A stretch of DNA of 64,000 nt. Origin: a virus. Below the pieces are notes generated by a model, which did no database searches, had not been told where the DNA came from, and saw only the letters and a program-made list of their open reading frames with translations. The stretch's first letter is position 1, and each line of letters begins with the position of its first letter. The stretch is taken from positions 1 through 64,000 of the IMG/VR virus record IMGVR_UViG_3300021171_000008; one strand, written 5' to 3'. This document shows positions 7,754 through 63,757 of this stretch, piece by piece. A program made the position numbers and the translations under genes.

Positions 7754-8044
7754 ATGGCGGGTCAGGTCAGCGGCGGCGAATTGCAGACGTTGATCTCAAC
7801 GCTGCAAAACGGAAACACGCAACTCGGCCATATTTTTCAGGCGCTAGGCGGCGTTGCCCCGCTGGCCACCGCGATCTCCGCGCTCGCTGCCACCTCCGCC
7901 GCCGTCCCGCAGATGGGCGAGGTCGTGTCGCGCACTGGCGGCGCTGGCCTCTCAGCGCCTCTGCCGGACGCCCCAGAGGGCTACGTCACCATCGACATTC
8001 CTGGCGTGGGGCCTCGGCTCATTCCTTACTATCCGGTGGGATAG
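7754..8044 (+). CDS. Hypothetical virion protein
   Basis: Tightly packed ORF in structural operon. Confidence 0.5.
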   Translation: MAGQVSGGELQTLISTLQNGNTQLGHIFQALGGVAPLATAISALAATSAAVPQMGEVVSRTGGAGLSAPLPDAPEGYVTIDIPGVGPRLIPYYPVG

Positions 8045-8048
8045 CGCC

Positions 8049-8768
8049 ATGAACGGCTCCGGCTACAACCCTTCGGCGATTCAGATCCGGCGGCAGCTCG
8101 GCGCCACGCGGCCGGTTCGCCCGCCGAGACTGCCGACGGCGAACGCGAACCCGAAGCTCGGCGGATCGCTCAACCTTCACTCGCTGATGCGGCCAGGGCG
8201 CGCGAGCGGCGGCGCAATCAACGACAGCCCCGAGACCCCGTTCACGGGCGGCATCATGTCGGTTGGAGCTGGTCGCGCCGATGACGTCCCGATGCACGTT
8301 CCTGACGGGGCTTATGTCGTGCCGGCGTGGGGGGTCAGCCACCTGGGCGAGGGGAACACGATGAGCGGCATGGCCATGCTCAAGGGCATGTTCGGGCAGC
8401 CGTGGGGCGCGGCGAAAGCGCCGTGGGGCGCGCCGCAGCCCAAGTCGATGTCGGGGGGAAAGGGCGTCCCGATCCCGAAGCCTCCGCCCATGCATTTTCA
8501 GCCGCCGAATTTCTATCCGCAGGGCATGTCAGCGGAGAACCCCGCGCTCGCGGACCCGAGGCAGAAGCACGGCGGCGCGGCGCGCGGCCCCGGTCCGGCA
8601 GTCCCGATTAACGCGAGCGGCGGCGAGTTCATTATCGCTCCAGATGAGGTCGCACGGATCGGGGACGGTAATATCGACAAAGGACACCTTGTCCTCGACA
8701 AGTGGATCACGCTTCTCAAGAAGGAAGCCGCGAAGACACTGATGAAGCTACCGGGACCAGCCAAATGA
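8049..8768 (+). CDS. Virion/internal protein with xAxGG motifs (GRADDVP..ASGGEFII)
   Basis: ORF in structural operon; 8607-8636 matches the decoded neighbouring array. Confidence 0.6.
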   Translation: MNGSGYNPSAIQIRRQLGATRPVRPPRLPTANANPKLGGSLNLHSLMRPGRASGGAINDSPETPFTGGIMSVGAGRADDVPMHVPDGAYVVPAWGVSHLGEGNTMSGMAMLKGMFGQPWGAAKAPWGAPQPKSMSGGKGVPIPKPPPMHFQPPNFYPQGMSAENPALADPRQKHGGAARGPGPAVPINASGGEFIIAPDEVARIGDGNIDKGHLVLDKWITLLKKEAAKTLMKLPGPAK

Positions 8769-8800: not shown

Positions 8801-8914
8801 CAGCCTTGGCGTGCCTGCCTGCCTTGCCTTGCCTCGCCATGCCACGCCAAGCCTCGCGCCGCCCCGCCGAGCCGCGCCTTGCCATGCCTCGCATGGCCAC
8901 CGCCATGCCCCGCC
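8801..8914 (-). ncRNA. Stand-alone GGY-NN pentamer array (putative guide RNA unit B)
   Basis: GGC-NN periodicity; upstream promoter-like TTGCAG..TATCT; 5' hairpin GCATGGC-GGTG-GCCATGC; 3' hairpin 8770-8803. Confidence 0.8.
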
Positions 8915-8954
8915 CAGATAACATGATTTGCACGAACTGCAAGGGCGCTCAGCC

Positions 8955-43022: not shown

Positions 43023-43411
43023 TGGTTCAGAGTCCCGCTCGCGTTCCTCAGACGTAGACTTTCCCGCTGCCGCCCTCTTCGATGTCGATCGGGTCATATT
43101 CGCCCGTGACCGCGCCGAACTCGTCAGGCTGCAACAGATATTCGCGGACATGTTCCCAGCCGCGATCTGCGGTGCGAGGCACGATGCGCAAAAGATGCTC
43201 CGGCGGGAACCCAAAGGACTCGTCCTCAAAATCAACGCGCACGCAGTCCGCCGTCTCGCGCTCGCTTCCAGTGACAGTCGCCAACTCGCAAGCGACCAGC
43301 CGTCCGTCCCAGTCGGCAATGTCATCGCCCTCAAGGTCCACTCGGTCGCCAATGCGAATATCGGCGGCCTTCACTTCGATCATGCATTCCATGGTCTTCG
43401 ACTCCGTTGGT

Positions 43412-43467
43412 AGGCTCATCAGTGGCGGCCAAACCGCCAGACGCGCGCCAGAGCGCGCGTTTCGCCT
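43412..43467 (-). ncRNA. Hammerhead ribozyme, type II
   Basis: AGGC-GAAAC-[GCGCGC/GCGCGC]-GUC-[UGGCGG/CCGCCA]-CUGAUGA-GCCU. Confidence 0.92.
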
Positions 43468-46699: not shown

Positions 46700-48233
46700 T
46701 TTGGTGAATTTTGTTGAGGAGGCGTGGCCGATTTTGGAGCCCCGGATGGTGTTTGTGAAGGGGCCTTTGGTCGAGGCGATCTGCGAGCATTTGGAAGCGG
46801 TTTCGGCGGGGCTGATTACGCGGCTGTTGATCAATGTTCCGCCTGGGTCGGCGAAGTCGCTTTTGGTCAGTGTGCTTTGGCCGAGCTGGGAATGGGGCCC
46901 TCGGGGTCTGACGTCGTATCGGTACATCAGCTCCAGTTTTGCGGAGAGCGCGTGCGTTCGGGACGTTCGCAAGATGCGGATGTTGGTGACCAGCGACTGG
47001 TATCAGCGTCACTGGCCGCATGTTGAGTTGACGCGCGGTGGGGAGCTGTCGTTTGAAAATTCGATGACGGGGACGCGGGACGGGGTTGCGTTCTCCAGTC
47101 TGACTAGCCGGCGCGGTGACAGATTGATTCTGGATGACCCGCACAGTGTGGAGAAGGCGGAGAGCCCGAACGATCGGGAGAAGGCGACGCGGCGGTTTCG
47201 GGAGAGCGCGGTGAACCGTCTGAACGATCAGGCGCGCTCGGCGATCGTTGTGGTGATGCAGCGGCTGCACGAGGCGGACATCAGCGGGGTGATCATGGAG
47301 TACATGCCCGATTATTGTTTGTTGGTTTTGCCGATGGAGTACGAATCGTCGCGGCATTGCGAAACGAGCATTGGATTTAGCGACTGGCGGCGCAGCGAGG
47401 GGGAGCTTTTGTTTCCGGCGCGGTGGGGCCGGCAGGAGGTTGAGAACCTCAAGCGGGACATGGACAAATTTGCGTGGGCTGGCCAGTACCAGCAGCGGCC
47501 GGCGCCGCGAGGCGGGGGGCTGTTTCCGTATGGCGGCTGGGAATATTGGCATCGCGGGATTGCGCTGACGTTCGGCAGGAACGAATCGCAATATCCGGAC
47601 ATGGACGTGATCCTGGGCTCGCTGGACCCGGCTTACGGCGAGAAGCAGGAAGCCGATTTTTCGGCCTTCATCGTGCTCGGGCTCTGGACGAACCATCGCG
47701 GGGTGCAACAGGCGATGTTGATGGCTTGCTGGCAGAAGCGGCTGGCGTTGAACGATCTGGTCGAGGAGGTGATCAAATCGTGCAGAAAATTGAAGGTCGA
47801 TCGGCTCTTAATCGAGCTGAAAGCGTCAGGGATCTCGGTCGCGCAGGAGATTTCGCGGCTGACGCGGGACGAGGAATTTGCGGTCCAGCGGATCGATCCG
47901 GGTAATATGGACAAGGTTTCGCGCGCGAACGCGCTGTCGCATTTGTGGGGCGAGGAGCAGGCGGATGGCAGTGTGCGCAAGGGCGTCATCTGGTGCCCAG
48001 CTCAGACGCAGAGTAACGGGGCGGTTTGGCCTCGGGATTGGGCCGAGCTGTGCATGAGCCAGTGCGCGAGCTTCCCGAAAGGGAAATTCGACGACATCGT
48101 TGACGCCTTGTGTCAGGCGCTGAAGTGGTGCCGCGATCGGGGCTTGCTGAAGAAGTCGACCGAGGTCCAGGCGGAGGAATACGCGGAGCTGATGGCGTCG
48201 CCGCTTCCCCCGCAGCCGCTGTACCCGATTTGA
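46575..48233 (+). CDS. terL: Terminase large subunit
   Basis: LLINVPPGSAKS, LILDDPH, VVMQRLHE, QYQQRP, IELKASG, FPKGKFDDIVDA. Confidence 0.95.
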   Translation: MPRSNLPSHEAVVAELMKRELGISSMEASASVSTVRERCRNSLVNFVEEAWPILEPRMVFVKGPLVEAICEHLEAVSAGLITRLLINVPPGSAKSLLVSVLWPSWEWGPRGLTSYRYISSSFAESACVRDVRKMRMLVTSDWYQRHWPHVELTRGGELSFENSMTGTRDGVAFSSLTSRRGDRLILDDPHSVEKAESPNDREKATRRFRESAVNRLNDQARSAIVVVMQRLHEADISGVIMEYMPDYCLLVLPMEYESSRHCETSIGFSDWRRSEGELLFPARWGRQEVENLKRDMDKFAWAGQYQQRPAPRGGGLFPYGGWEYWHRGIALTFGRNESQYPDMDVILGSLDPAYGEKQEADFSAFIVLGLWTNHRGVQQAMLMACWQKRLALNDLVEEVIKSCRKLKVDRLLIELKASGISVAQEISRLTRDEEFAVQRIDPGNMDKVSRANALSHLWGEEQADGSVRKGVIWCPAQTQSNGAVWPRDWAELCMSQCASFPKGKFDDIVDALCQALKWCRDRGLLKKSTEVQAEEYAELMASPLPPQPLYPI

Positions 48234-50273: not shown

Positions 50274-50350
50274 GCCCAGGTAGCTCAGTTCGGTAGAGCG
50301 CTGCGTTGAAGGCGCAGGCGTCGGAGGTTCGATTCCTTCCTTGGGCACCA
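50274..50350 (+). tRNA. trnF: tRNA-Phe(GAA) with encoded CCA
   Basis: Full cloverleaf: GCCCAGG/CTTGGGC acceptor, CTGCG-TTGAAGG-CGCAG anticodon arm, GGAGG-TTCGATT-CCTTC T arm. Confidence 0.9.
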
Positions 50351-51209: not shown

Positions 51210-51295
51210 CATTTCTGGGCCTTGACGTTTCGCAGATCGTGCAAATATGGGCGAAACCACGGCCTACCGTTGGCTATTACAGCAAAGGAGTCGAA

Positions 51296-52111
51296 ATGAA
51301 GTCCCCGAGGGTGACGGCTAAGAAAGAATCCGTCGAAATCAAACCGATTGAGATGCGCAAATTCGTCGTCCATCTGGTCGGCGAGAATCTTCTCATGCAC
51401 CGCTTCGCGCAAAAAGCGTGGCAAGAACTGCTTTTGCCCGCCTCGAAAGGGAAGGCGGCCGAAGGCGCGCCGCTCAAGCATGATCCTCTGAGCGAGTTTC
51501 GCGATTCGCTCTATCGCTGCCGCGACGTCCAGGCGCCAACCCTGTTTCACTTGCCGAACGGCATCGTGAGCAAGGCCATGGCGGCGGCGGCGCTCGACAT
51601 GGGCGGGGCGTTCAAGACACAAATCCAGCGGCTGACCATGGTTCTGACGCCGACGCTGCATTTGTACGGCGTGCCGGAGCTGCGCATGGACATGGTGCGC
51701 AACTCCGATATGGCCAGGACGCCGGATGTGCGGACGCGGCCGATCTTTAAGCGCTGGGCGCTCCCCAATGTGGTGATCCAGTACAAGGTCGCGCCGCTCA
51801 ACGACAGCCAGATGCTGAATCTGCTCGCGGGCGCCGGCCAGATCGTCGGTTTCGGTGATGGTCGCCAGCAAAAGGGCGGTGGCCCGGAGGGCGGCCCGTT
51901 CGGCTGCTTCCGCATCGTCAGCGATCACAATGATCCGGAGCTGAAGGAGATCATGGCGACCGGCGGGCGGGCCGCACAGCAGGCCGCGTGGACCGATCCG
52001 GAGATGTTCGACGAGAACACCGCCGAATTGATGGACTGGTTCAACGTTGAGATCGATCGCCGCCACAAGCCTCGTCGGGGCGATGGCGCCGCCGTGCAAG
52101 TGGGAGCTTGA
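51296..52111 (+). CDS. Cas7/RAMP-like RNA-binding protein, putative effector of the GGY-NN arrays
   Basis: VHLVGENLLMH first strand, HLPNGIVSKAMAAAA helix, C-terminal Gly-rich loop AGQIVGFGDGRQQKGGG..FGCFRI; own promoter CTTGAC-N17-AATATG at 51221-51249. Confidence 0.75.
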   Translation: MKSPRVTAKKESVEIKPIEMRKFVVHLVGENLLMHRFAQKAWQELLLPASKGKAAEGAPLKHDPLSEFRDSLYRCRDVQAPTLFHLPNGIVSKAMAAAALDMGGAFKTQIQRLTMVLTPTLHLYGVPELRMDMVRNSDMARTPDVRTRPIFKRWALPNVVIQYKVAPLNDSQMLNLLAGAGQIVGFGDGRQQKGGGPEGGPFGCFRIVSDHNDPELKEIMATGGRAAQQAAWTDPEMFDENTAELMDWFNVEIDRRHKPRRGDGAAVQVGA

Positions 52112-52112
52112 A

Positions 52113-52604
52113 ATGGAGCAAGAACGACGAGAGCTTTTGTGGCAGGCGTTGGTCGCCAGCGCTGTTGACGGTCTCATCACGGCCGATAGCGTGGTCGAAG
52201 CCGCGAAGGACCCCGCGAACGTCCTGCACGGCGAGTTCGAGTGGCGGGACGATGTCGCCGCTCACCGATACAGGCTGCAACAGGCGCGGCAGCTGATCCG
52301 GATCTATTCCCCGCGAGTGGATTACATCTCGATCAAGGACGAGGCGCCGGTCGAGCGCGACATCGTCTACTTGCACGATCCGCGCGTCGGCCCGCGTGTC
52401 CAGGCCTACGTGTCGTCGGCCACTCTCGCGGACGATGGCGACGCTTCGCTCACGGCGGTCTTGCTCGAACTCAGGTCCGTCAGCGCGGCGGTGACGCGGC
52501 TCGCGCGCGTCGCTCATGCTCTGGGAGTCGAGTGCCCGACTGGGGATCTGGAGGCCGCCGTCCAGGCGTTGGCTGAGCGTCTCCAGGGGCGGAATGCAGC
52601 GTAA
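52113..52604 (+). CDS. Partner protein in RAMP operon
   Basis: VVEAAKDPANVLHGEFEWRDDVAAHRYRLQQARQLIR; lies between RAMP gene and array. Confidence 0.7.
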   Translation: MEQERRELLWQALVASAVDGLITADSVVEAAKDPANVLHGEFEWRDDVAAHRYRLQQARQLIRIYSPRVDYISIKDEAPVERDIVYLHDPRVGPRVQAYVSSATLADDGDASLTAVLLELRSVSAAVTRLARVAHALGVECPTGDLEAAVQALAERLQGRNAA

Positions 52605-52614
52605 GTGCGTATCA

Positions 52615-52884
52615 GGCAAGGCAGGCACGGTTAGGTGGGGCCGGGTAAGGCGAGGCAGGGTCAGGTTAGGTCCGGTGAGGCAGAGCAAGGCAGGCGCGGC
52701 TGGGCTGGGCAAGCCTTGGGCGGCATGGCTGGGCGCGCTTTGGTATGGCTCGGCAGGGCTCGGCAGGCACGGCGTGGCAAGGCGCGGCGAGGCTTGTCAA
52801 GGCATGGCTGGGCTAGGCGAGGCAGGCGAGGCAAGGCGAGGCTCGGTCTGGTGCGGCCGGGTCAGGCGAGGCAGGCCATGGCAC
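52615..52884 (+). ncRNA. Main GGY-NN pentamer array (four units separated by GGCA), putative guide RNAs
   Basis: About 50 GGY-NN units starting 10 nt after the partner gene stop and ending at a terminator. Confidence 0.85.
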
Positions 52885-52889
52885 GGGGG

Positions 52890-52915
52890 AGGGGGCGGCT
52901 TCGGCCGCCCCCTTT
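52890..52915 (+). terminator. Intrinsic terminator after array
   Basis: AGGGGGCGGC-TTCG-GCCGCCCCCT-TT. Confidence 0.8.
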
Positions 52916-53566
52916 CTATTTGTCGACCATCCTCGACACGACCGATCGCGTGAACGGGCGGCCGGACGAGCTGACAAAGCCCTGGTTCGCCAGCGCTGCG
53001 CGCACCGCGTTGAGCGATGCGCCTGCCTGACGCAGCTGCTTTGCGATCTTGGTCATCTTCGGGTCCATTTCGGCCCAGGATTTTCTGCCCTCGCACTTGC
53101 CGGTCGTGGCCTTCTTGCGGTCGCGCGCCGCCTTGAGCTTGGCGACCGTCAATGCCCGGTCGAACTCAGCGACCGCGCCCAGGATCTGCCGGACCAGGGA
53201 CGCCGTCGGCGTGTCCTCGACGAAGCTCCCAGGCGAATCGACGGCGACCAACTCGACGCCGAGATCTTGAAGCATCTTCCAGCCGGTTTCCTGCACCATG
53301 AGATCGCGGGCGAAGCGGTTGGCGGTCTCGACGAGGATCGTTCTCACGCCATTCCCGGCGATCCGCTGGAGCATGAGGCCGAAGCCCTCCCGCTGGGTGA
53401 CCGGATCGGCGCCGGAGACGGCGGCGTCGTAATATTCGGCGACGATCGAGATATCGTTTCGCTCGGCGAACTGGCGGACGGCCCGCTCTTGGCGGCCGAG
53501 GCTGTCCTTGTCGACGCCGACGTTGGTGGCGGACGAGGTTCGGAAGTAGGCGACGGCTTTTTTCAC
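52916..53566 (-). CDS. Serine recombinase (resolvase family) with C-terminal HTH
   Basis: AVAYFRTSS, SLGRQ, DAAVSG, NRFARD, ILGAVAEFDR. Confidence 0.9.
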   Translation of the reverse strand: MKKAVAYFRTSSATNVGVDKDSLGRQERAVRQFAERNDISIVAEYYDAAVSGADPVTQREGFGLMLQRIAGNGVRTILVETANRFARDLMVQETGWKMLQDLGVELVAVDSPGSFVEDTPTASLVRQILGAVAEFDRALTVAKLKAARDRKKATTGKCEGRKSWAEMDPKMTKIAKQLRQAGASLNAVRAALANQGFVSSSGRPFTRSVVSRMVDK

Positions 53567-54287: not shown

Positions 54288-54644
54288 ATGATCGAGATCG
54301 GACGACGCGGATTCATCACTGGGCTTGCCGCTCTCGTCGCCGCTCCGGCGATCATTCGCGTCGCGCCGCTCATGCCGATCTCGACGCGGCTCACCCCGCT
54401 CTATGTGCCGATCGATTGGCTCGCGGATGCGATCATCGACATGGGGAATCGGGTTGAGAGGACCGGGTTGGGGAAGCTTGAGAGGATCGAGTTGGAGAGG
54501 CTTGAGAGGATCGAGTTGGAGAAGCATGCGTGGTCGAGGCCGCTGGCGGACAACTGGATCAATCTCCGCGATTACGATCCTGACTTCGTCCGGCAATGGA
54601 CCGGCAATGGCGAACTCACGAGTCCGGAGTACTGGCTGTCATGA
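54288..54644 (+). CDS. Small protein with twin-arginine-like leader
   Basis: IGRRGFITGLAALVAAPA; internal LERIE duplication. Confidence 0.5.
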   Translation: MIEIGRRGFITGLAALVAAPAIIRVAPLMPISTRLTPLYVPIDWLADAIIDMGNRVERTGLGKLERIELERLERIELEKHAWSRPLADNWINLRDYDPDFVRQWTGNGELTSPEYWLS

Positions 54645-59907: not shown

Positions 59908-62232
59908 ATGGTCGACGATCTCGGCGACTATGATGTCACCCCTGTCGAGGGAAACCCCTTCGGCTCGATGGCGTCGTCGCCGAACGACTACGACGTCTCG
60001 CCGGTCGATCACGATCCTTTCGCTGGCGCTGGCGAAAACCCGGCGCCAGACCAATTTGAGCTAGCCTCGCGGCAGCCCGAGGCCACGCCGTCGAGCGCAG
60101 GCAGGCCACCGCTCGATCCTGGCGATCGCGATCTCCTCATCAAAACGGTTTTCGGCGAGGCGAGCGGCGAGCCGCCGCTTGGTCAGGCTGGCATCGCCCA
60201 CGCCATCCTGAACCGGGTCCGCGCTGGCGACTATGGCTCGGGGATCGCGGGCGTCGTGAAGGCTCCGGCTGCCGGCTTGAACCCGCGCCTTGGCTACCAT
60301 GAGTTTTCGCCCTGGAACACGGGGCGCGCCACCGAGGGCAATCCCACCGCGCAGCACCTCTCGCCAGACAATCCGAATCCGGTTCTGGCCAGGGCCTACC
60401 GCAACATCGGCGACGTCGTCGACAAGGCCTATTCGGGTCTCATACCCGATCCGACCGGCGGCGCGACCCACTATTACGGGCGTATGCGCGGTCACCCGTC
60501 TTGGTCGCCGCCGCTCGCCGCGCAGAATCAGGTCCGGATCGGGGGCACGACGTTCGTCGGCCGCGAGCACGGCCCAGGCGAAATAGCGAGCCAGACGGCC
60601 AGCGGCTACGCTGGCGGCGGTCCAGTGCAGCTCAACGCAGACTTGCGGCGCCGCCTCTCGATGATCACGCGGCCTCGCTTCGCCGAGGGCGGCGCGCCGG
60701 ACGATGATCCACTGGGCTCCAGTGTCACCATGGCGTCTGACCAAACCGCCGACGCGCCCATTGCCTACACGCCTGAAGACATCGACCAACCGGGGCCGAT
60801 GACGGAAACGCTGGCCCATTACGCAGGGAACCCGGCGCACGCGATGCCGATGCGGGTCGGCGCCGCGATCGGCGAGGAGGCCAAGCGCATGGGGCAGGGG
60901 CTCTGGAGCGCGGCCACGGTCCCTGGCGACGTCGCTACCGGCAAAGCCTCGATGGCGGACCCGGAAACACAGCAGCGGGTCACGAGCCTCGCCGCGTCGT
61001 TGCCAGGAGGGGGGCCGGAGGCGGCGCTCGGCGCGCGCGGGCCGGTTGGCGCGGCGGCCAAGGCGGTCAAGGGCGCTCCGGCGACGCGCGAGCTTAATGT
61101 CTGGAATCCGACGACCGGCCTGTGGGAGGGCCCGAAGCCGACGCTGAACCCGCCGGAGGGCGTGCATTACGATCCGATGTTCAATTTCGATCCGGCTTTG
61201 ATGAACAAGGTGCCGGACGTGCCGCAGTTTGAATTGCAGCGCTATGACCCGCCGCGTGGCGTCTCGGACCGCATGCGCGATCTGGTGACCAACTCGGACG
61301 TCCGCGCTCAGATGATCGGCATCGTCCGCAACGGCATGCAAACGGTGGGGCTGAGCTGGTACAATACCGGCCAGCTTCGCGCGATGTTCTTAAAGGAGCT
61401 TGGCGACGACGCCGGCCAGCAGGCGTTCGAGAAGTATATGAACCTCGTGTCGGCCACGAGCCCCGAGAATAAAATCCCGCAGAACATCCGGACTGCCAGC
61501 TATTTCTATGAGCGCGACGCCGCAGGCGTGCCGCCGCCGGAAAGAGGGGACCCGATCGCGCAGCCTTACGGCTCGAAAGCGCAGAAGCTGCATCAGCAAA
61601 ACGTGGGCAACGTCCTGACCGAGGGCTACGACGTCCTCAAGAACCCGAAGCCGCCGTCCTTCGTTCAGAATTTGATGGGCAATTACGCCCCCGGCACGAT
61701 GGACCGGCACGCCTTCAAGTTGCCAGCGATTCTCTCGCGTGATCCGCGTTTCTTGGAGACGTCGTTCACGCCGGAAAAGGGCGTGGAGCCGGTGCGCCCA
61801 CAACGGATGTTCCAAAACGGTGAACTGTCGATAGACGACGCCGTCAATCAGCCGACGATGTGGGCTGGCATGCCGAACAAGAACGAGTATGCCGCGCTTG
61901 AGGGCTGGTACAAGTCGATCGGCGACGAGCTGGGGATCACGCCTGCCCAGGTGCAGGCGTCGGCCTGGGTTGGCGGGGGACATATCACGGGTCTGGCCTC
62001 GGCCGCCGACGAGACCTTCCTGCATTCCTTCCAGGGACGGGTGTTCAATACCGCTCACCACACCGGCCAAACGCCCTCAGAGGTGGTCAAGCGGATGATC
62101 AGGGGCGAGCAGCCTTTGCTTTCCGGCGGGCCGGGGATGGCTCCGACAGCAGCTCAAACTTCGACGGCTGGGGCGGGAGGTTCGCCTCCGCCACCATCTG
62201 ATCAAGCAGAGCCCGGACATCCGTTTTATTGA
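59908..62232 (+). CDS. Multidomain virion protein: SleB/Hydrolase_2 cell-wall hydrolase plus uncharacterised C-terminal domain
   Basis: TVFGEASGEP..ILNRV..EFSPWN..DPTGGATHYY; C-terminal SATSP..FVQNLMG..MDRHA..TPAQVQASAW. Confidence 0.7.
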   Translation: MVDDLGDYDVTPVEGNPFGSMASSPNDYDVSPVDHDPFAGAGENPAPDQFELASRQPEATPSSAGRPPLDPGDRDLLIKTVFGEASGEPPLGQAGIAHAILNRVRAGDYGSGIAGVVKAPAAGLNPRLGYHEFSPWNTGRATEGNPTAQHLSPDNPNPVLARAYRNIGDVVDKAYSGLIPDPTGGATHYYGRMRGHPSWSPPLAAQNQVRIGGTTFVGREHGPGEIASQTASGYAGGGPVQLNADLRRRLSMITRPRFAEGGAPDDDPLGSSVTMASDQTADAPIAYTPEDIDQPGPMTETLAHYAGNPAHAMPMRVGAAIGEEAKRMGQGLWSAATVPGDVATGKASMADPETQQRVTSLAASLPGGGPEAALGARGPVGAAAKAVKGAPATRELNVWNPTTGLWEGPKPTLNPPEGVHYDPMFNFDPALMNKVPDVPQFELQRYDPPRGVSDRMRDLVTNSDVRAQMIGIVRNGMQTVGLSWYNTGQLRAMFLKELGDDAGQQAFEKYMNLVSATSPENKIPQNIRTASYFYERDAAGVPPPERGDPIAQPYGSKAQKLHQQNVGNVLTEGYDVLKNPKPPSFVQNLMGNYAPGTMDRHAFKLPAILSRDPRFLETSFTPEKGVEPVRPQRMFQNGELSIDDAVNQPTMWAGMPNKNEYAALEGWYKSIGDELGITPAQVQASAWVGGGHITGLASAADETFLHSFQGRVFNTAHHTGQTPSEVVKRMIRGEQPLLSGGPGMAPTAAQTSTAGAGGSPPPPSDQAEPGHPFY

Positions 62233-62684
62233 GAAGCTCGTTGAGCGGCAGCCGCTCAAGCACGGTTCCGCCGTCCTCGCCGAAGACTTCCAGCTCCCAG
62301 CGGCCACCTAAGCTGCCGTGCTCCCGCCAGAGCGGCCAAGCTTTGTAAGCGCTCATCGTCGACTCTCTTTAAGCGCCGGGGCCTTCAGCGGCCTAGTCCC
62401 CGGCAGTCCGTTCTCACCCGCTAGCTTAGGCGTCCGCGAACCTGTATCCCTACTATTTCCGCGCCGTTGGGTCTTTCGGCAACGCGGCGATCAAGCGTTG
62501 GTGGCGCTCATATTCGGCGAGGCCGACGGCGAGGTCGGGGTGCTTTCCGGCATGGATGCTTTGCATCTTGGAGGCAAACCGAACCGGGCCATTGGTCTTG
62601 CCATGTTTGTCGATGTCCTGCGTAAGCGTGCTCATTCGACTCTCCTATTTGCATGACTGGGGCGGGACCCACGGCCCCGCCCCC

Positions 62685-62762
62685 TGCCTGCCTCGCCGCG
62701 CCTTGCCTTGCGCCGCCCTGCCACGCCTCGCCAAGCCTTGCCTTGACAGGCCTTGCCTCGCC
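62685..62762 (-). ncRNA. Stand-alone GGY-NN pentamer array (putative guide RNA unit C)
   Basis: 14 pentamers plus 2 GGCA; promoter TTGCAA-N17-TATCTT (62813-62785); 5' and 3' hairpins. Confidence 0.82.
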
Positions 62763-62866
62763 TCGGTGCATTTGCACCAACTGCAAGATAAGGGCCCTTT
62801 CGCGCAATTGCAATCGGCGCTAGGAATTGCCGCGTTGAAAGGCTGGACCCCAAAGAGGGTTCCGCC

Positions 62867-63757
62867 ATGGGCGAACACAGTCAAAAGAGCTTCACGGCCG
62901 ACAAACTCCGAAAGTTTGAGGTCTCGGGCAAAAACGGCGGCTCCGGAAACGGAGACAAGGGCGCTTCGGCAGACGATTTCGGGCGGAAAGCCGCCCGCAC
63001 GAGCGATTCTTCCGCGTTCGCCGCTGGCGGCGCCGCGAAGGCGCCCTCGCTTGGTCGCGCCGGCCGCGCGAAAGGCGGACGCATCAATCGCCCTGCGGTG
63101 GCTTCGGCTGACTTTAAGCCGTCGAAGACCGGCGGCAATTATCCCGGCAAGATTCCAGACAACGAGGGCGGCAAGGCCCGCAATCTTTCTATGCTCACCG
63201 ATGGCGGTCCGCGATCCTATGGCGATCGGCCGTTGATCATTGGCCATGGCGACCAAAACGCCATGCGCGCTAGAGGCGGCAAGGTTTCGCGCGCCAGGGG
63301 CGGCCGAACCGAAATTAGTGATCTGAGGGACGACAAGACTTCGCTCGCCAGAGGCGGGCGGGTCGGCCGCGCGCACGGCGGCAAGGCCAAGGGCGCGAAG
63401 GGCAAAACCGTCGTCAATGTCATCGTGGGCGGCAAAGGCGATCAGCAGCAGCCGCCTCCGACGCCTCCGATCATGCCGCACCCGATGGTGCCTCCTCCAC
63501 CTCCTCCGCCGCCGCCGCAGGGGATGCCTCCTGGTGGGATGCCGCCGGGGATGCCTCCTGGCGCTGGTATGCCGCCTCCGCCGCCGCCGAGACCGCCTAT
63601 GCCGCCTCCGGGTGGCATGCCGCCGGGAATGCCTCCTCCGGGCATGGGCCGCGCGCACGGCGGGCGGATCTCCGAGAAGTTCGGCGCGGGCTCCGGCCGA
63701 GGCCGGATGGAGAAGACCAAGCGCCAGGGCCACGGGAAGGTGAAGCTAGCCGAATGA
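62867..63757 (+). CDS. Basic Gly/Pro-rich virion protein with repeated RAxGG motifs
   Basis: RAKGG, RARGG, RAHGG repeats; 62900-62935 matches the decoded adjacent array. Confidence 0.65.
   Translation: MGEHSQKSFTADKLRKFEVSGKNGGSGNGDKGASADDFGRKAARTSDSSAFAAGGAAKAPSLGRAGRAKGGRINRPAVASADFKPSKTGGNYPGKIPDNEGGKARNLSMLTDGGPRSYGDRPLIIGHGDQNAMRARGGKVSRARGGRTEISDLRDDKTSLARGGRVGRAHGGKAKGAKGKTVVNVIVGGKGDQQQPPPTPPIMPHPMVPPPPPPPPPQGMPPGGMPPGMPPGAGMPPPPPPRPPMPPPGGMPPGMPPPGMGRAHGGRISEKFGAGSGRGRMEKTKRQGHGKVKLAE

What the first reader, a model, noticed from the sequence alone, without database searches (positions are those of the whole stretch)
62685..62935. Array C decodes to the 5' end of the neighbouring virion gene
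Minus-strand NNs: GA AA CT AA AA TT GA GT AG GG AA AA (GC GA). Codons at 62900-62935: GAc AAa CTc CGa AAg TTt GAg GTc TCg GGc AAa AAc (DKLRKFEVSGKN). 10 of 12 dinucleotides are identical. The two differences are Arg vs Lys/Asn and a synonymous Ser swap (TCG vs AGY). The array has its own promoter (TTGCAA-N17-TATCTT), a 5' hairpin (TGGTGC-AAAT-GCACCG) and a 3' hairpin, and sits about 140 bp from the matched site.
Basis: seen in the sequence. Interest (0 to 1): 0.93.

Follow-up and report, generated by a model that had tools for sequence, protein, structure and literature searches.

The report
Solo VIPR guide RNA against sibling phages
Array C is a guide-RNA gene of a phage VIPR system (a CRISPR-related, RNA-guided DNA silencer first described in 2026 preprints). 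Its variable letters spell the first two bases of 12 consecutive codons of a gene in rival sibling phages, so it is real but belongs to a known class.

Summary
On the minus strand, 62690-62764 holds 15 NN-GGC pentamers. Twelve of the NNs match codon positions 1-2 at 62900-62935 in 10 of 12 places. The next best site in the window scores 6 of 12.

The only exact 12/12 hit in IMG/VR is the in-frame orthologous site of a 78-kb sibling phage, which has Lys AAA and Ser AGT there. Three other guides of this phage also have exact in-frame targets in relatives: terminase, recombinase and the ORF next to array A.

The relatives carry no arrays. They also lack the two genes at 51296-52604.

The 271-aa product is Cas7-like (Z about 9.5). 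It matches the characterised Vipr of phage SUSP1 (hhalign E 2.4e-10), with the GGY-contact residues Arg, Asp and Arg conserved. Only a 1-nt skip gives matches.

This is therefore a VIPR system (bioRxiv 10.64898/2026.04.26.720920, .720927 and 2026.10.15.759431), and array C is a solo vrRNA. This scan has already met VIPR systems on several other genomes.

Details that look new:
- Three of four guides lie within 620 bp of the resident, mismatched allele of their target.
- The Vipr clade is divergent.
- The targets are core genes of sibling phages.

Expression, loading onto Vipr and silencing are inferred, not shown.

The parts
62690..62764 (-). vrRNA-C repeat tract: 15 NN-GGC pentamers (13 GGC, 1 GTC, 1 CGC). 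Units 2-13 form the matching core.
62659..62689 (-). 3' end of vrRNA-C: two short units (AGGC, AGG), then an 11-bp GC-rich hairpin (arms 62673-62683 and 62659-62669). No T-run follows.
   Evidence: Arrays A and B end with the same layout (AGGC units, then a GC hairpin).
62765..62778 (-). 5' hairpin GGTGC-AAAT-GCACC, just upstream of the first repeat.
62772..62786 (-). Inverted-repeat motif TTGCAGTTGGTGCAA, operator-like. Six copies in the window; another copy precedes array A.
   Evidence: 6 found, 0.16 expected.
62785..62813 (-). Promoter-like TTGCAA-N17-TATCTT for leftward transcription. Conserved in relatives that have no array.
   Evidence: Not called by the consensus scan.
62654..62776 (.). 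The 123-bp insertion that carries vrRNA-C, relative to the array-less relative L010. It is flanked by the 7-nt direct repeat ATTTGCA (62647-62653 and 62770-62776).
62453..62635 (-). 60-aa ORF. Its 5' UTR now contains vrRNA-C.
   Evidence: No family found.
62900..62935 (+). Resident near-match site, codons 12-23 of ORF 62867-63757 (10/12). The orthologous sites in relatives score 11/12 and 12/12.
51296..52111 (+). vipr: 271-aa Cas7-like RAMP protein.
52113..52604 (+). Candidate vap: 163-aa accessory gene of unknown fold.
52615..52876 (+). Main vrRNA array B. Guides are separated by 4-nt AGGC units: U1 52627-52691, U2 52696-52764, U3 52769-52823, U4 52828-52872.
52891..52922 (+). Intrinsic-terminator-like hairpin and T-tract that close array B.
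   Evidence: read from the sequence.
8821..8890 (-). Solo vrRNA-A repeat tract (14 units). It lies inside a roughly 290-bp insertion that also carries a motif/promoter copy (8928-8942) and a hairpin at about 8727-8760.
8607..8639 (+). Resident near-match of vrRNA-A in ORF 7854-8768 (INASGGEFIIA, 8/11). Relatives score 10/11, and one metagenome contig scores 11/11.
47568..47600 (+). Resident near-match of guide U1 in the large terminase (TFGRNESQYPD, 8/11). Five relatives score 11/11.
53486..53512 (-). Resident near-match of guide U4 in the serine recombinase, codons 19-27 (7/9). Ten viral contigs score 9/9.

Best explanation
Array C is a solo vrRNA gene of this phage's VIPR system.

How it most likely works:
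1. It is transcribed leftward from a pre-existing promoter as the leader of a small gene. This step is inferred.
2. Copies of the phage's Vipr protein (51296-52111) would bind the RNA, one per pentamer. They hide each GGC and expose each NN.
3. The filament pairs the NNs with a DNA strand while skipping every third base. This builds an R-loop that blocks transcription. Steps 2 and 3 are taken from the VIPR preprints, not shown here.

The twelve core NNs spell codon positions 1-2 of codons 12-23 of the ORF 62867 orthologue in sibling phages that lack VIPR. The guide would therefore silence that gene, and probably the operon behind it, in a co-infecting or resident rival.

The phage's own copy differs at two of the twelve dinucleotides (Lys to Arg, and the Ser codon box). 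This presumably spares it.
For: Shown here:

(1) Repeat architecture. 15 NN-GGC units, followed by AGGC units and a GC hairpin. All three array loci share this layout.

(2) Skip rule. Only a 1-nt skip gives strong matches: 12/15, 9/9, 10/13 and 10/14 in relative G001, against at most 8 for skips of 0, 2 or 3.

(3) Exact in-frame targets in orthologous genes of relatives, for all four decodable guides:
- C: 12/12, one hit in IMG/VR where about 4e-4 is expected (my estimate).
- U1: 11/11 in five terminase genes.
- U4: 9/9 in ten contigs.
- A: 11/11 in one metagenome contig.

(4) Self matches are always lower than non-self matches. For C: self 10/12, relatives 11/12 and 12/12. For A: self 8/11, relatives 10/11.

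(5) Complete relatives have no arrays and neither of the two genes. Arrays A and C are insertions relative to them.

(6) The 271-aa protein is Cas7-like.
- AF2 model: pLDDT 83, pTM 0.80.
- Foldseek: all top hits are Csm3/Cas7, prob about 1.0.
- VIA: Z 9.0-9.6 over residues 17-211.
- hhalign against SUSP1 Vipr ALH47069.1: probability 96.8%, E 2.4e-10. This aligns R148, D188 and R190 with the published GGY contacts R138, D177 and R179.

(7) Genetic linkage. Homologues of the 271-aa protein lie in at least 26, and of the second protein in at least 24, of about 120 viral loci that were fetched by the array pattern alone. Where I compared coordinates (about ten loci), both genes lie on the array's strand. 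The order is usually gene, gene, array; in L046 and L051 the array lies between the two genes.

From the literature: the filament, the 1-nt skip, DNA binding, transcriptional silencing, solo vrRNAs, and self scores lower than non-self scores.
Against: - There are no RNA data. All holder runs are DNA, so expression, strand, ends and processing of vrRNA-C are unproven.
- The promoter is a weak consensus match and no terminator is called.
- The residue that stacks on the second G in SUSP1 Vipr (W178) is Gly in this protein and a small residue in its five closest homologues, although it is W or Y in 34 of 40 family members.
- The accessory protein is unrelated to SUSP1 vap1 and has no recognisable fold.
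- The 3' ends of the three loci share a layout but little sequence.
- The phage's own site keeps 10 of 12 core pairs. This is 83% of the core, above the preprints' 80% cut-off if only the core is counted, and 67% of all 15 units. Self-sparing by two mismatches is therefore an assumption.
- Three guide units (U2a, U2b, U3) have no target.
Confidence: 0.9

Rival explanations
1. Self-regulation. vrRNA-C acts on the phage's own ORF 62867 site (10/12, 136 bp away) to time or damp its own gene. The better match in relatives would then only reflect the ancestral sequence.
For: The site is adjacent, promoter-proximal and in frame. Core identity of 83% exceeds the 80% cut-off the preprints use for calling targets. 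The array sits beside an operator-like motif shared with other transcription units.
Against: - All four guides match non-self alleles better than self, and each has an exact non-self target.
- The resident sites differ by two to three dinucleotides, including changes that preserve the protein. This is what self-avoidance predicts.
- The preprints report that disturbing NN pairing abolishes silencing, and that self scores are lower than non-self scores.
Confidence: 0.1
2. Decoy or hijack. The solo vrRNAs A and C are made to load a rival phage's Vipr and redirect it, as satellite-borne solo vrRNAs do, rather than to arm the phage's own Vipr.
For: Solo vrRNAs with that role are described in 10.64898/2026.10.15.759431. 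A and C lie 10 kb and 44 kb from the vipr gene.
Against: - The phage has its own vipr.
- A and C use the same NN-GGC unit and the same AGGC-plus-hairpin ending as the vipr-linked array B.
- Their targets are essential-looking genes of relatives that have no vipr at all. There is no rival Vipr to redirect in the known targets.
Confidence: 0.05
3. Coincidence. Array C is a vrRNA or a plain repeat whose resemblance to the neighbouring codons is chance.
For: The scan reads very many windows. One other array among 79 reached 9/12 in its own flanks, which is within chance expectation.
Against: - The observed score is 10/12 against a next best of 6/12.
- No shuffle of 300 reached it.
- The site is 136 bp away and in frame.
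- There is an exact 12/12 match at the orthologous site of a relative, as the only hit in IMG/VR.
- Three further guides behave the same way.
Confidence: 0.01

Closest known systems
VIPR systems (Vipr + vap + vrRNA). Reference system: type II of Escherichia phage SUSP1. bioRxiv 10.64898/2026.04.26.720920 and 10.64898/2026.04.26.720927.
   Same: - A Cas7-like single RAMP protein with the Arg / Asp / Arg GGY contacts.
- A second small gene beside it.
- Guide RNAs of 9-16 pentamers with constant GGY and variable NN.
- The 1-nt skip, aligned to the wobble base.
- Targets in competing phages.
- A guide array downstream of the two genes.
   Different: - Vipr is 271 aa here, against 195 aa in SUSP1, with a C-terminal helical extension.
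- The Trp of the G-loop is Gly.
- The accessory protein is unrelated to vap1.
- Guides in the main array are separated only by 4-nt AGGC units.
- The 3' ends are simple GC hairpins rather than a conserved pseudoknot tail.
- The host is an uncultured soil bacterium.
- No tblastn hit to this Vipr in 50,697 GenBank phage records.
- Which of the seven published types it belongs to could not be determined, because the type tables are not held.
Solo (orphan) vrRNAs of satellites and of VIPR-null phages. bioRxiv 10.64898/2026.10.15.759431.
   Same: A stand-alone vrRNA far from any vipr gene. Wobble-aligned targets. Self match lower than non-self match. A recombinase is among the targets of the system.
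   Different: Here the solo vrRNAs sit in a phage that keeps its own vipr. They are inserted right beside the resident allele of the gene they target in relatives. The targets are core genes of sibling phages, not a satellite, a vipr gene or host REP decoys.
Class 1 CRISPR effector backbones (Csm3 / Cmr4 / Cas7 filaments).
   Same: The RAMP fold (Z about 9.5). One protomer per guide segment. Thumb-driven periodic base flipping.
   Different: No repeat-spacer array and no other cas genes. The guide period is 5 with only 2 pairing bases, and the target period is 3. In CRISPR the pattern is 5 paired plus 1 flipped.
Free-standing homing endonuclease genes of T-even phages (marker exclusion). An analogy from my own knowledge, not tested here.
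   Same: A weapon gene is placed next to the resident, immune allele of the gene it attacks in related co-infecting phages.
   Different: The agent is a protein nuclease, not an RNA guide. It cuts DNA and drives gene conversion. No such drive is shown here.

Membership tests
VIPR system | A Vipr protein with the RAMP fold (RRM core, glycine-rich loop, thumb) outside a CRISPR context. | tested here: met
   AF2 model pLDDT 83. All top Foldseek hits are Csm3/Cas7. VIA Z 9.0-9.6, rmsd about 3.3 A, 138-157 residues aligned. Glycine-rich loop at residues 181-203 and a long beta-hairpin at 145-165. No other cas gene was noticed among the ORFs examined, and no CRISPR-type repeat in the TRF output.
VIPR system | Sequence homology to an experimentally characterised Vipr, including the residues that hold GGY. 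| tested here: met
   hhalign of the family profile against SUSP1 ALH47069.1: probability 96.8%, E 2.4e-10 over 52 columns. R148, D188 and R190 are invariant in 40 of 40 sequences and align with R138, D177 and R179. The W178 position is Gly here (W or Y in 34 of 40).
VIPR system | A vrRNA of about 9-16 tandem pentamers with constant GGY and hypervariable NN. | tested here: met
   Array C has 15 units, 13 of them with GGC. Array A has 14 units. Array B has units of 5-13 with GGC or GGT.
VIPR system | A conserved, structured 3' tail after the repeats. | tested here: inconclusive
   All three loci end with AGGC units and then a GC-rich hairpin. The sequences are not conserved, and a pseudoknot was not tested.
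VIPR system | The 1-nt skip rule between guide NNs and target. | tested here: met
   Skips of 0, 1, 2 and 3 were compared on this genome and on two complete relatives. Only skip 1 gives 9/9 to 12/15.
VIPR system | The skipped base falls on the codon wobble position of coding targets. | tested here: met
   All four decoded sites are in frame with their ORFs.
VIPR system | Targets lie in competing mobile elements, and the self match is lower than the non-self match. | tested here: met
   Exact hits occur only in relatives. Self scores are 10/12, 8/11, 7/9 and 8/11. The relatives lack VIPR.
VIPR system | An accessory vap gene next to vipr. | tested here: inconclusive
   A 163-aa gene follows vipr and co-occurs with it and with arrays in many viral loci. 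It is not similar to SUSP1 vap1 and has no fold match.
VIPR system | The vrRNA is expressed, binds Vipr and silences its DNA target. | not testable with these tools
   No RNA run holds the stretch. This needs bench work.
CRISPR-Cas | A repeat-spacer array (direct repeats of about 23-50 nt) with adaptation or other cas genes. | tested here: not met
   Tandem Repeats Finder lists only period-5 tracts at the three loci. Rfam gives no CRISPR repeat family. The locus has only the Cas7-like gene and one small gene.

The most novel reading that the evidence does not exclude
The guides may be placed on purpose beside the resident, mismatched allele of the gene they silence in rivals. The distances are 136, 182 and 614 bp for C, A and U4. 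The chance that 3 of 4 fall within 1 kb in a 78-kb genome is about 6.5e-5.

Two readings are possible:
- New guide cassettes are born by a local copying step from a co-infecting relative's allele. That would be a primitive guide-acquisition route, which the VIPR preprints leave open.
- Linkage of guide and immune allele is selected as a selfish, marker-exclusion-like module that spreads by recombination between sibling phages.

Neither idea appears in the parts of the three preprints that I read or word-searched.
Probability: 0.2. Interest if true: 0.75.

Novelty: new member of a known kind. Interest (0 to 1): 0.4.

Why it matters
The class is only months old and is known mainly from enterobacterial and Pseudomonas systems. 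This phage offers a clean natural case from soil.
- Every decodable guide has an exact target in the orthologous gene of sibling phages that lack the system.
- The carrier keeps near-matches of 67-83%.

That gives a natural calibration point for how many NN mismatches protect against self-silencing.

It also shows VIPR aimed at core genes of close relatives (terminase, recombinase, structural-module genes), and adds a divergent Vipr clade with a different partner protein.

The tight linkage of guides to the resident alleles is a testable lead on how guides arise or spread.

Tried and rejected
- **Artefact or planted sequence.** Rejected. Many independent soil runs hold the stretch, and a contig from one of them bridges the array.
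- **Chance.** Rejected.
- **Do NN-GGC arrays of other viral contigs decode to their own flanks?** No signal.
  - 79 arrays at dinucleotide level: mean best 5.85, against 5.84 for shuffles.
  - 213 arrays at amino-acid level: 4.50 against 4.42.
  - The single 9/12 in L067 is chance-level and lies only in a short (~45-aa) open frame.
  - Near-self matches are therefore a peculiarity of this phage, not of the class.
- **The serine codon-box swap as a special self-avoidance signature.** Only suggestive. Boxes differ at 114 of 611 (G001) and 82 of 552 (G003) conserved Ser residues genome-wide. Three of 4 in the target windows gives P of about 0.02.
- **Rfam.** No family at any array.
- **Promoter and terminator consensus scan of 62300-62950.** Nothing called.
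- **Guides U2a, U2b and U3.** No significant site in this genome or in two relatives. The U3 pattern has no exact hit in IMG/VR.
- **Array A, 10-unit pattern.** No exact hit in IMG/VR. The hit was found later in a metagenome.
- **The 163-aa protein.** No Pfam, NCBIfam or PADLOC family. No Foldseek match at E below 1.
- **tblastn of the 271-aa protein against GenBank phages.** No match.
- **Supplementary tables of the discovery preprint.** Not held, so the VIPR type could not be assigned.
- **Depth and joints.** Low contig depth over 51.4-52.7 kb and a joint 51281 to 52887 (side 29) hint at variants without the cassette, but this is too weak to use. A firmer joint, 62365 to 62797 (side 98), shows a variant in which the 60-aa gene and array C are absent or replaced.
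- **Early ideas dropped.**
  - A TRAP-like ring-protein binding site or G-quadruplex leader. These came from memory and were superseded by the Vipr evidence.
  - Translation of the array in any frame.
  - A -35 box (TTGACA) on the GCC strand.

Full report
**1. What is there**

The window is the first 64 kb of a complete 78,422-bp IMG/VR virus record.

On the minus strand, 62690-62764 reads as 15 pentamers NN-GGC. Two units are degenerate, GTC and CGC. The tract is preceded by a small hairpin. It is followed by two short AGGC/AGG units and an 11-bp GC hairpin. The RNA fold is -79.2 kcal/mol, z -5.2.

Two more such tracts exist in the genome and no others:
- Array A, 8821-8890, minus strand.
- Array B, about 52615-52876, plus strand. 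It is a string of guides separated by 4-nt AGGC units and closed by a hairpin with a T-tract.

**2.

Units 2-13 of array C equal codon positions 1-2 of 62900-62935 in 10 of 12 places. The site is in frame with ORF 62867-63757 and lies 136 bp away.
- The next best of about 128,000 positions in the window scores 6/12.
- None of 300 shuffles of the NN order reached the observed segment score on the whole genome. This holds for dinucleotides (8, against a maximum of 7) and for encoded residues (10, against a maximum of 7).

The DNA is natural.
- Twenty-two soil-metagenome runs of 2018-2022 hold at least half of its sampled words. Two hold all of them and about ten hold 0.9 or more.
- A 640-nt contig of an independent run covers 62214-62853 with one difference.

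**3.

The exact 12-unit pattern, with wobble bases free, has a single hit in IMG/VR. It is the in-frame orthologous site (DKLKKFEVSGKN) of a complete 78,058-bp relative. There, codon 4 is AAA and the serine is AGT.

Scores of other relatives and of the phage's own site:

| Sequence | Core match |
|---|---|
| Relative G001 (L135) | 12/12 |
| L006, L007, L010 | 11/12 |
| G003 | 10/12 |
| L013 | 8/12 |
| Resident site | 10/12 |

The other arrays behave the same way.

| Guide | Target gene | Exact non-self match | Self match |
|---|---|---|---|
| U1 | large terminase | 11/11 in five relatives | 8/11 |
| U4 | serine recombinase, codons 19-27 | 9/9 in ten viral contigs | 7/9 |
| A | ORF 7854-8768 | 11/11 in one metagenome contig; 10/11 in three relatives | 8/11 |

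I checked it myself.

Only a 1-nt skip gives these matches. Skips of 0, 2 or 3 give at most 7-8.

Units U2a, U2b and U3 have no detectable target.

**4. The partner genes**

Complete relatives have no arrays. They also have no homologue of the two genes upstream of array B.

Those two genes travel with such arrays elsewhere. About 120 viral loci were fetched only by the pattern (GGCNN)x8. At least 26 encode a homologue of the 271-aa protein and at least 24 a homologue of the second protein. Where I compared coordinates, both genes are on the array's strand. The array usually follows the pair, though it lies between the two genes in two loci.

The 271-aa protein:
- It has no Pfam, NCBIfam or PADLOC family. 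It falls in PHROG 4652, of unknown function.
- Its model (pLDDT 83, pTM 0.80) matches only Cas7-family chains. Foldseek probability is about 1.0. VIA Z is 9.0-9.6 over residues 17-211.

**5. It is a known class**

A literature search led to the VIPR preprints.
- The discovery paper describes the class: a phage-borne ancestral RAMP protein (Vipr), an accessory gene (vap), and vrRNAs of 9-16 pentamers with constant GGY and variable NN. These recognise DNA with a one-base skip that falls on the wobble position. They act against competing phages by transcriptional silencing.
- The structural paper shows one Vipr protomer per repeat, GGY sequestered, NN paired to the target strand, and an R-loop triplex.
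- A third paper describes solo vrRNAs and self scores lower than non-self scores.

I located the reference locus in phage SUSP1, KT454805, and compared proteins.
- The profile of the 271-aa family matches SUSP1 Vipr at probability 96.8%, E 2.4e-10.
- The match places the invariant R148, D188 and R190 on the published GGY contacts R138, D177 and R179.
- The Trp between Asp and Arg is Gly in this protein and small in its five nearest homologues, but it is W or Y in 34 of 40 family members.
- The second protein is unrelated to SUSP1 vap1 and has no fold match.

This scan has already filed VIPR systems on several other genomes.

**6. Anatomy of array C as a solo vrRNA**

Compared with the array-less relative L010, the window carries a 123-bp insertion (62654-62776). 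It is flanked by the 7-nt direct repeat ATTTGCA. It sits in the leader of a leftward 60-aa gene.

The promoter-like TTGCAA-N17-TATCTT upstream is present in the relatives too, so it was co-opted, not imported. It is too weak for the consensus scan.

An inverted-repeat motif, TTGCAGNTSRTGCAA, overlaps it. The motif has six copies in the window against 0.16 expected, and one copy precedes array A. That copy arrived with A's roughly 290-bp insertion. The two solo guides are thus probably under the same phage regulator. This is an inference.

The guide's NNs equal the coding strand, so it would pair with the template strand. The preprint reports that either strand works.

The site is 33 nt into the gene, which is a good place for a transcription roadblock.

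The target gene's function is unknown. It lies after the portal gene and a lysozyme-domain gene.

**7. What may be new**

- Three of four guides lie within 620 bp of the resident allele of their target. P is about 6.5e-5 for 3 of 4 falling within 1 kb.
- The arrays of other viral contigs show no near-self matches in their flanks. This linkage is therefore not general.
- The resident alleles differ from the guides by two or three dinucleotides, always including a serine codon-box switch. Such switches are common between these phages (15-19% of conserved Ser). The enrichment is only suggestive, P about 0.02.

**8. What is not shown**

Expression, RNA ends, loading onto Vipr, silencing, and the protective effect of two mismatches are all inferred from the sequence and from the preprints.

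Noticed in passing
window 43406-43467 (-): A type II hammerhead ribozyme (39.3 bits, gathering score 37) lies in the gap between two small minus-strand ORFs. It is 9 kb from the nearest array. The VIPR preprint mentions ribozyme-interspersed arrays, but no repeat tract lies next to this one.
   Followed up: partly
window 8928, 18003, 28472, 31712, 44767, 62772: Six copies of an inverted-repeat motif, TTGCAGNTSRTGCAA (0.16 expected). Several are followed by a -10-like box. It is probably the operator or promoter element of a phage regulator. Two copies head the solo guide RNAs A and C.
   Followed up: partly
whole genome vs relatives G001 and G003: At about 78% protein identity, 15-19% of conserved serines use the other codon box (TCN vs AGY). 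The terminase gene alone holds about 20 such switches. Whether this high rate reflects pressure from wobble-skipping guides was not tested.
   Followed up: partly
window 52696-52823 (+): Guide units U2a, U2b and U3 of the main array have no significant match in this genome, in two complete relatives or (U3) in IMG/VR. Their targets are unknown.
   Followed up: partly
window 51857-51868 (residues 187-190 of the 271-aa protein): The G-loop reads G-D-G-R, where most family members and SUSP1 Vipr read G-D-W-R. The five closest homologues also have a small residue at that position.
   Followed up: partly
window 51281-52887: One contig of a soil run joins 51281 to 52887 (short side, 29 letters). Contig depth is low over the vipr-vap-array stretch in two runs. 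This is a weak hint that some strains lack the whole cassette.
   Followed up: no
window 50274-50347 (+): A tRNA gene (60.8 bits) lies about 950 bp upstream of the vipr gene.
   Followed up: no
window 54454-54525: A 24-nt tandem repeat, 3 copies, 89% matches.
   Followed up: no
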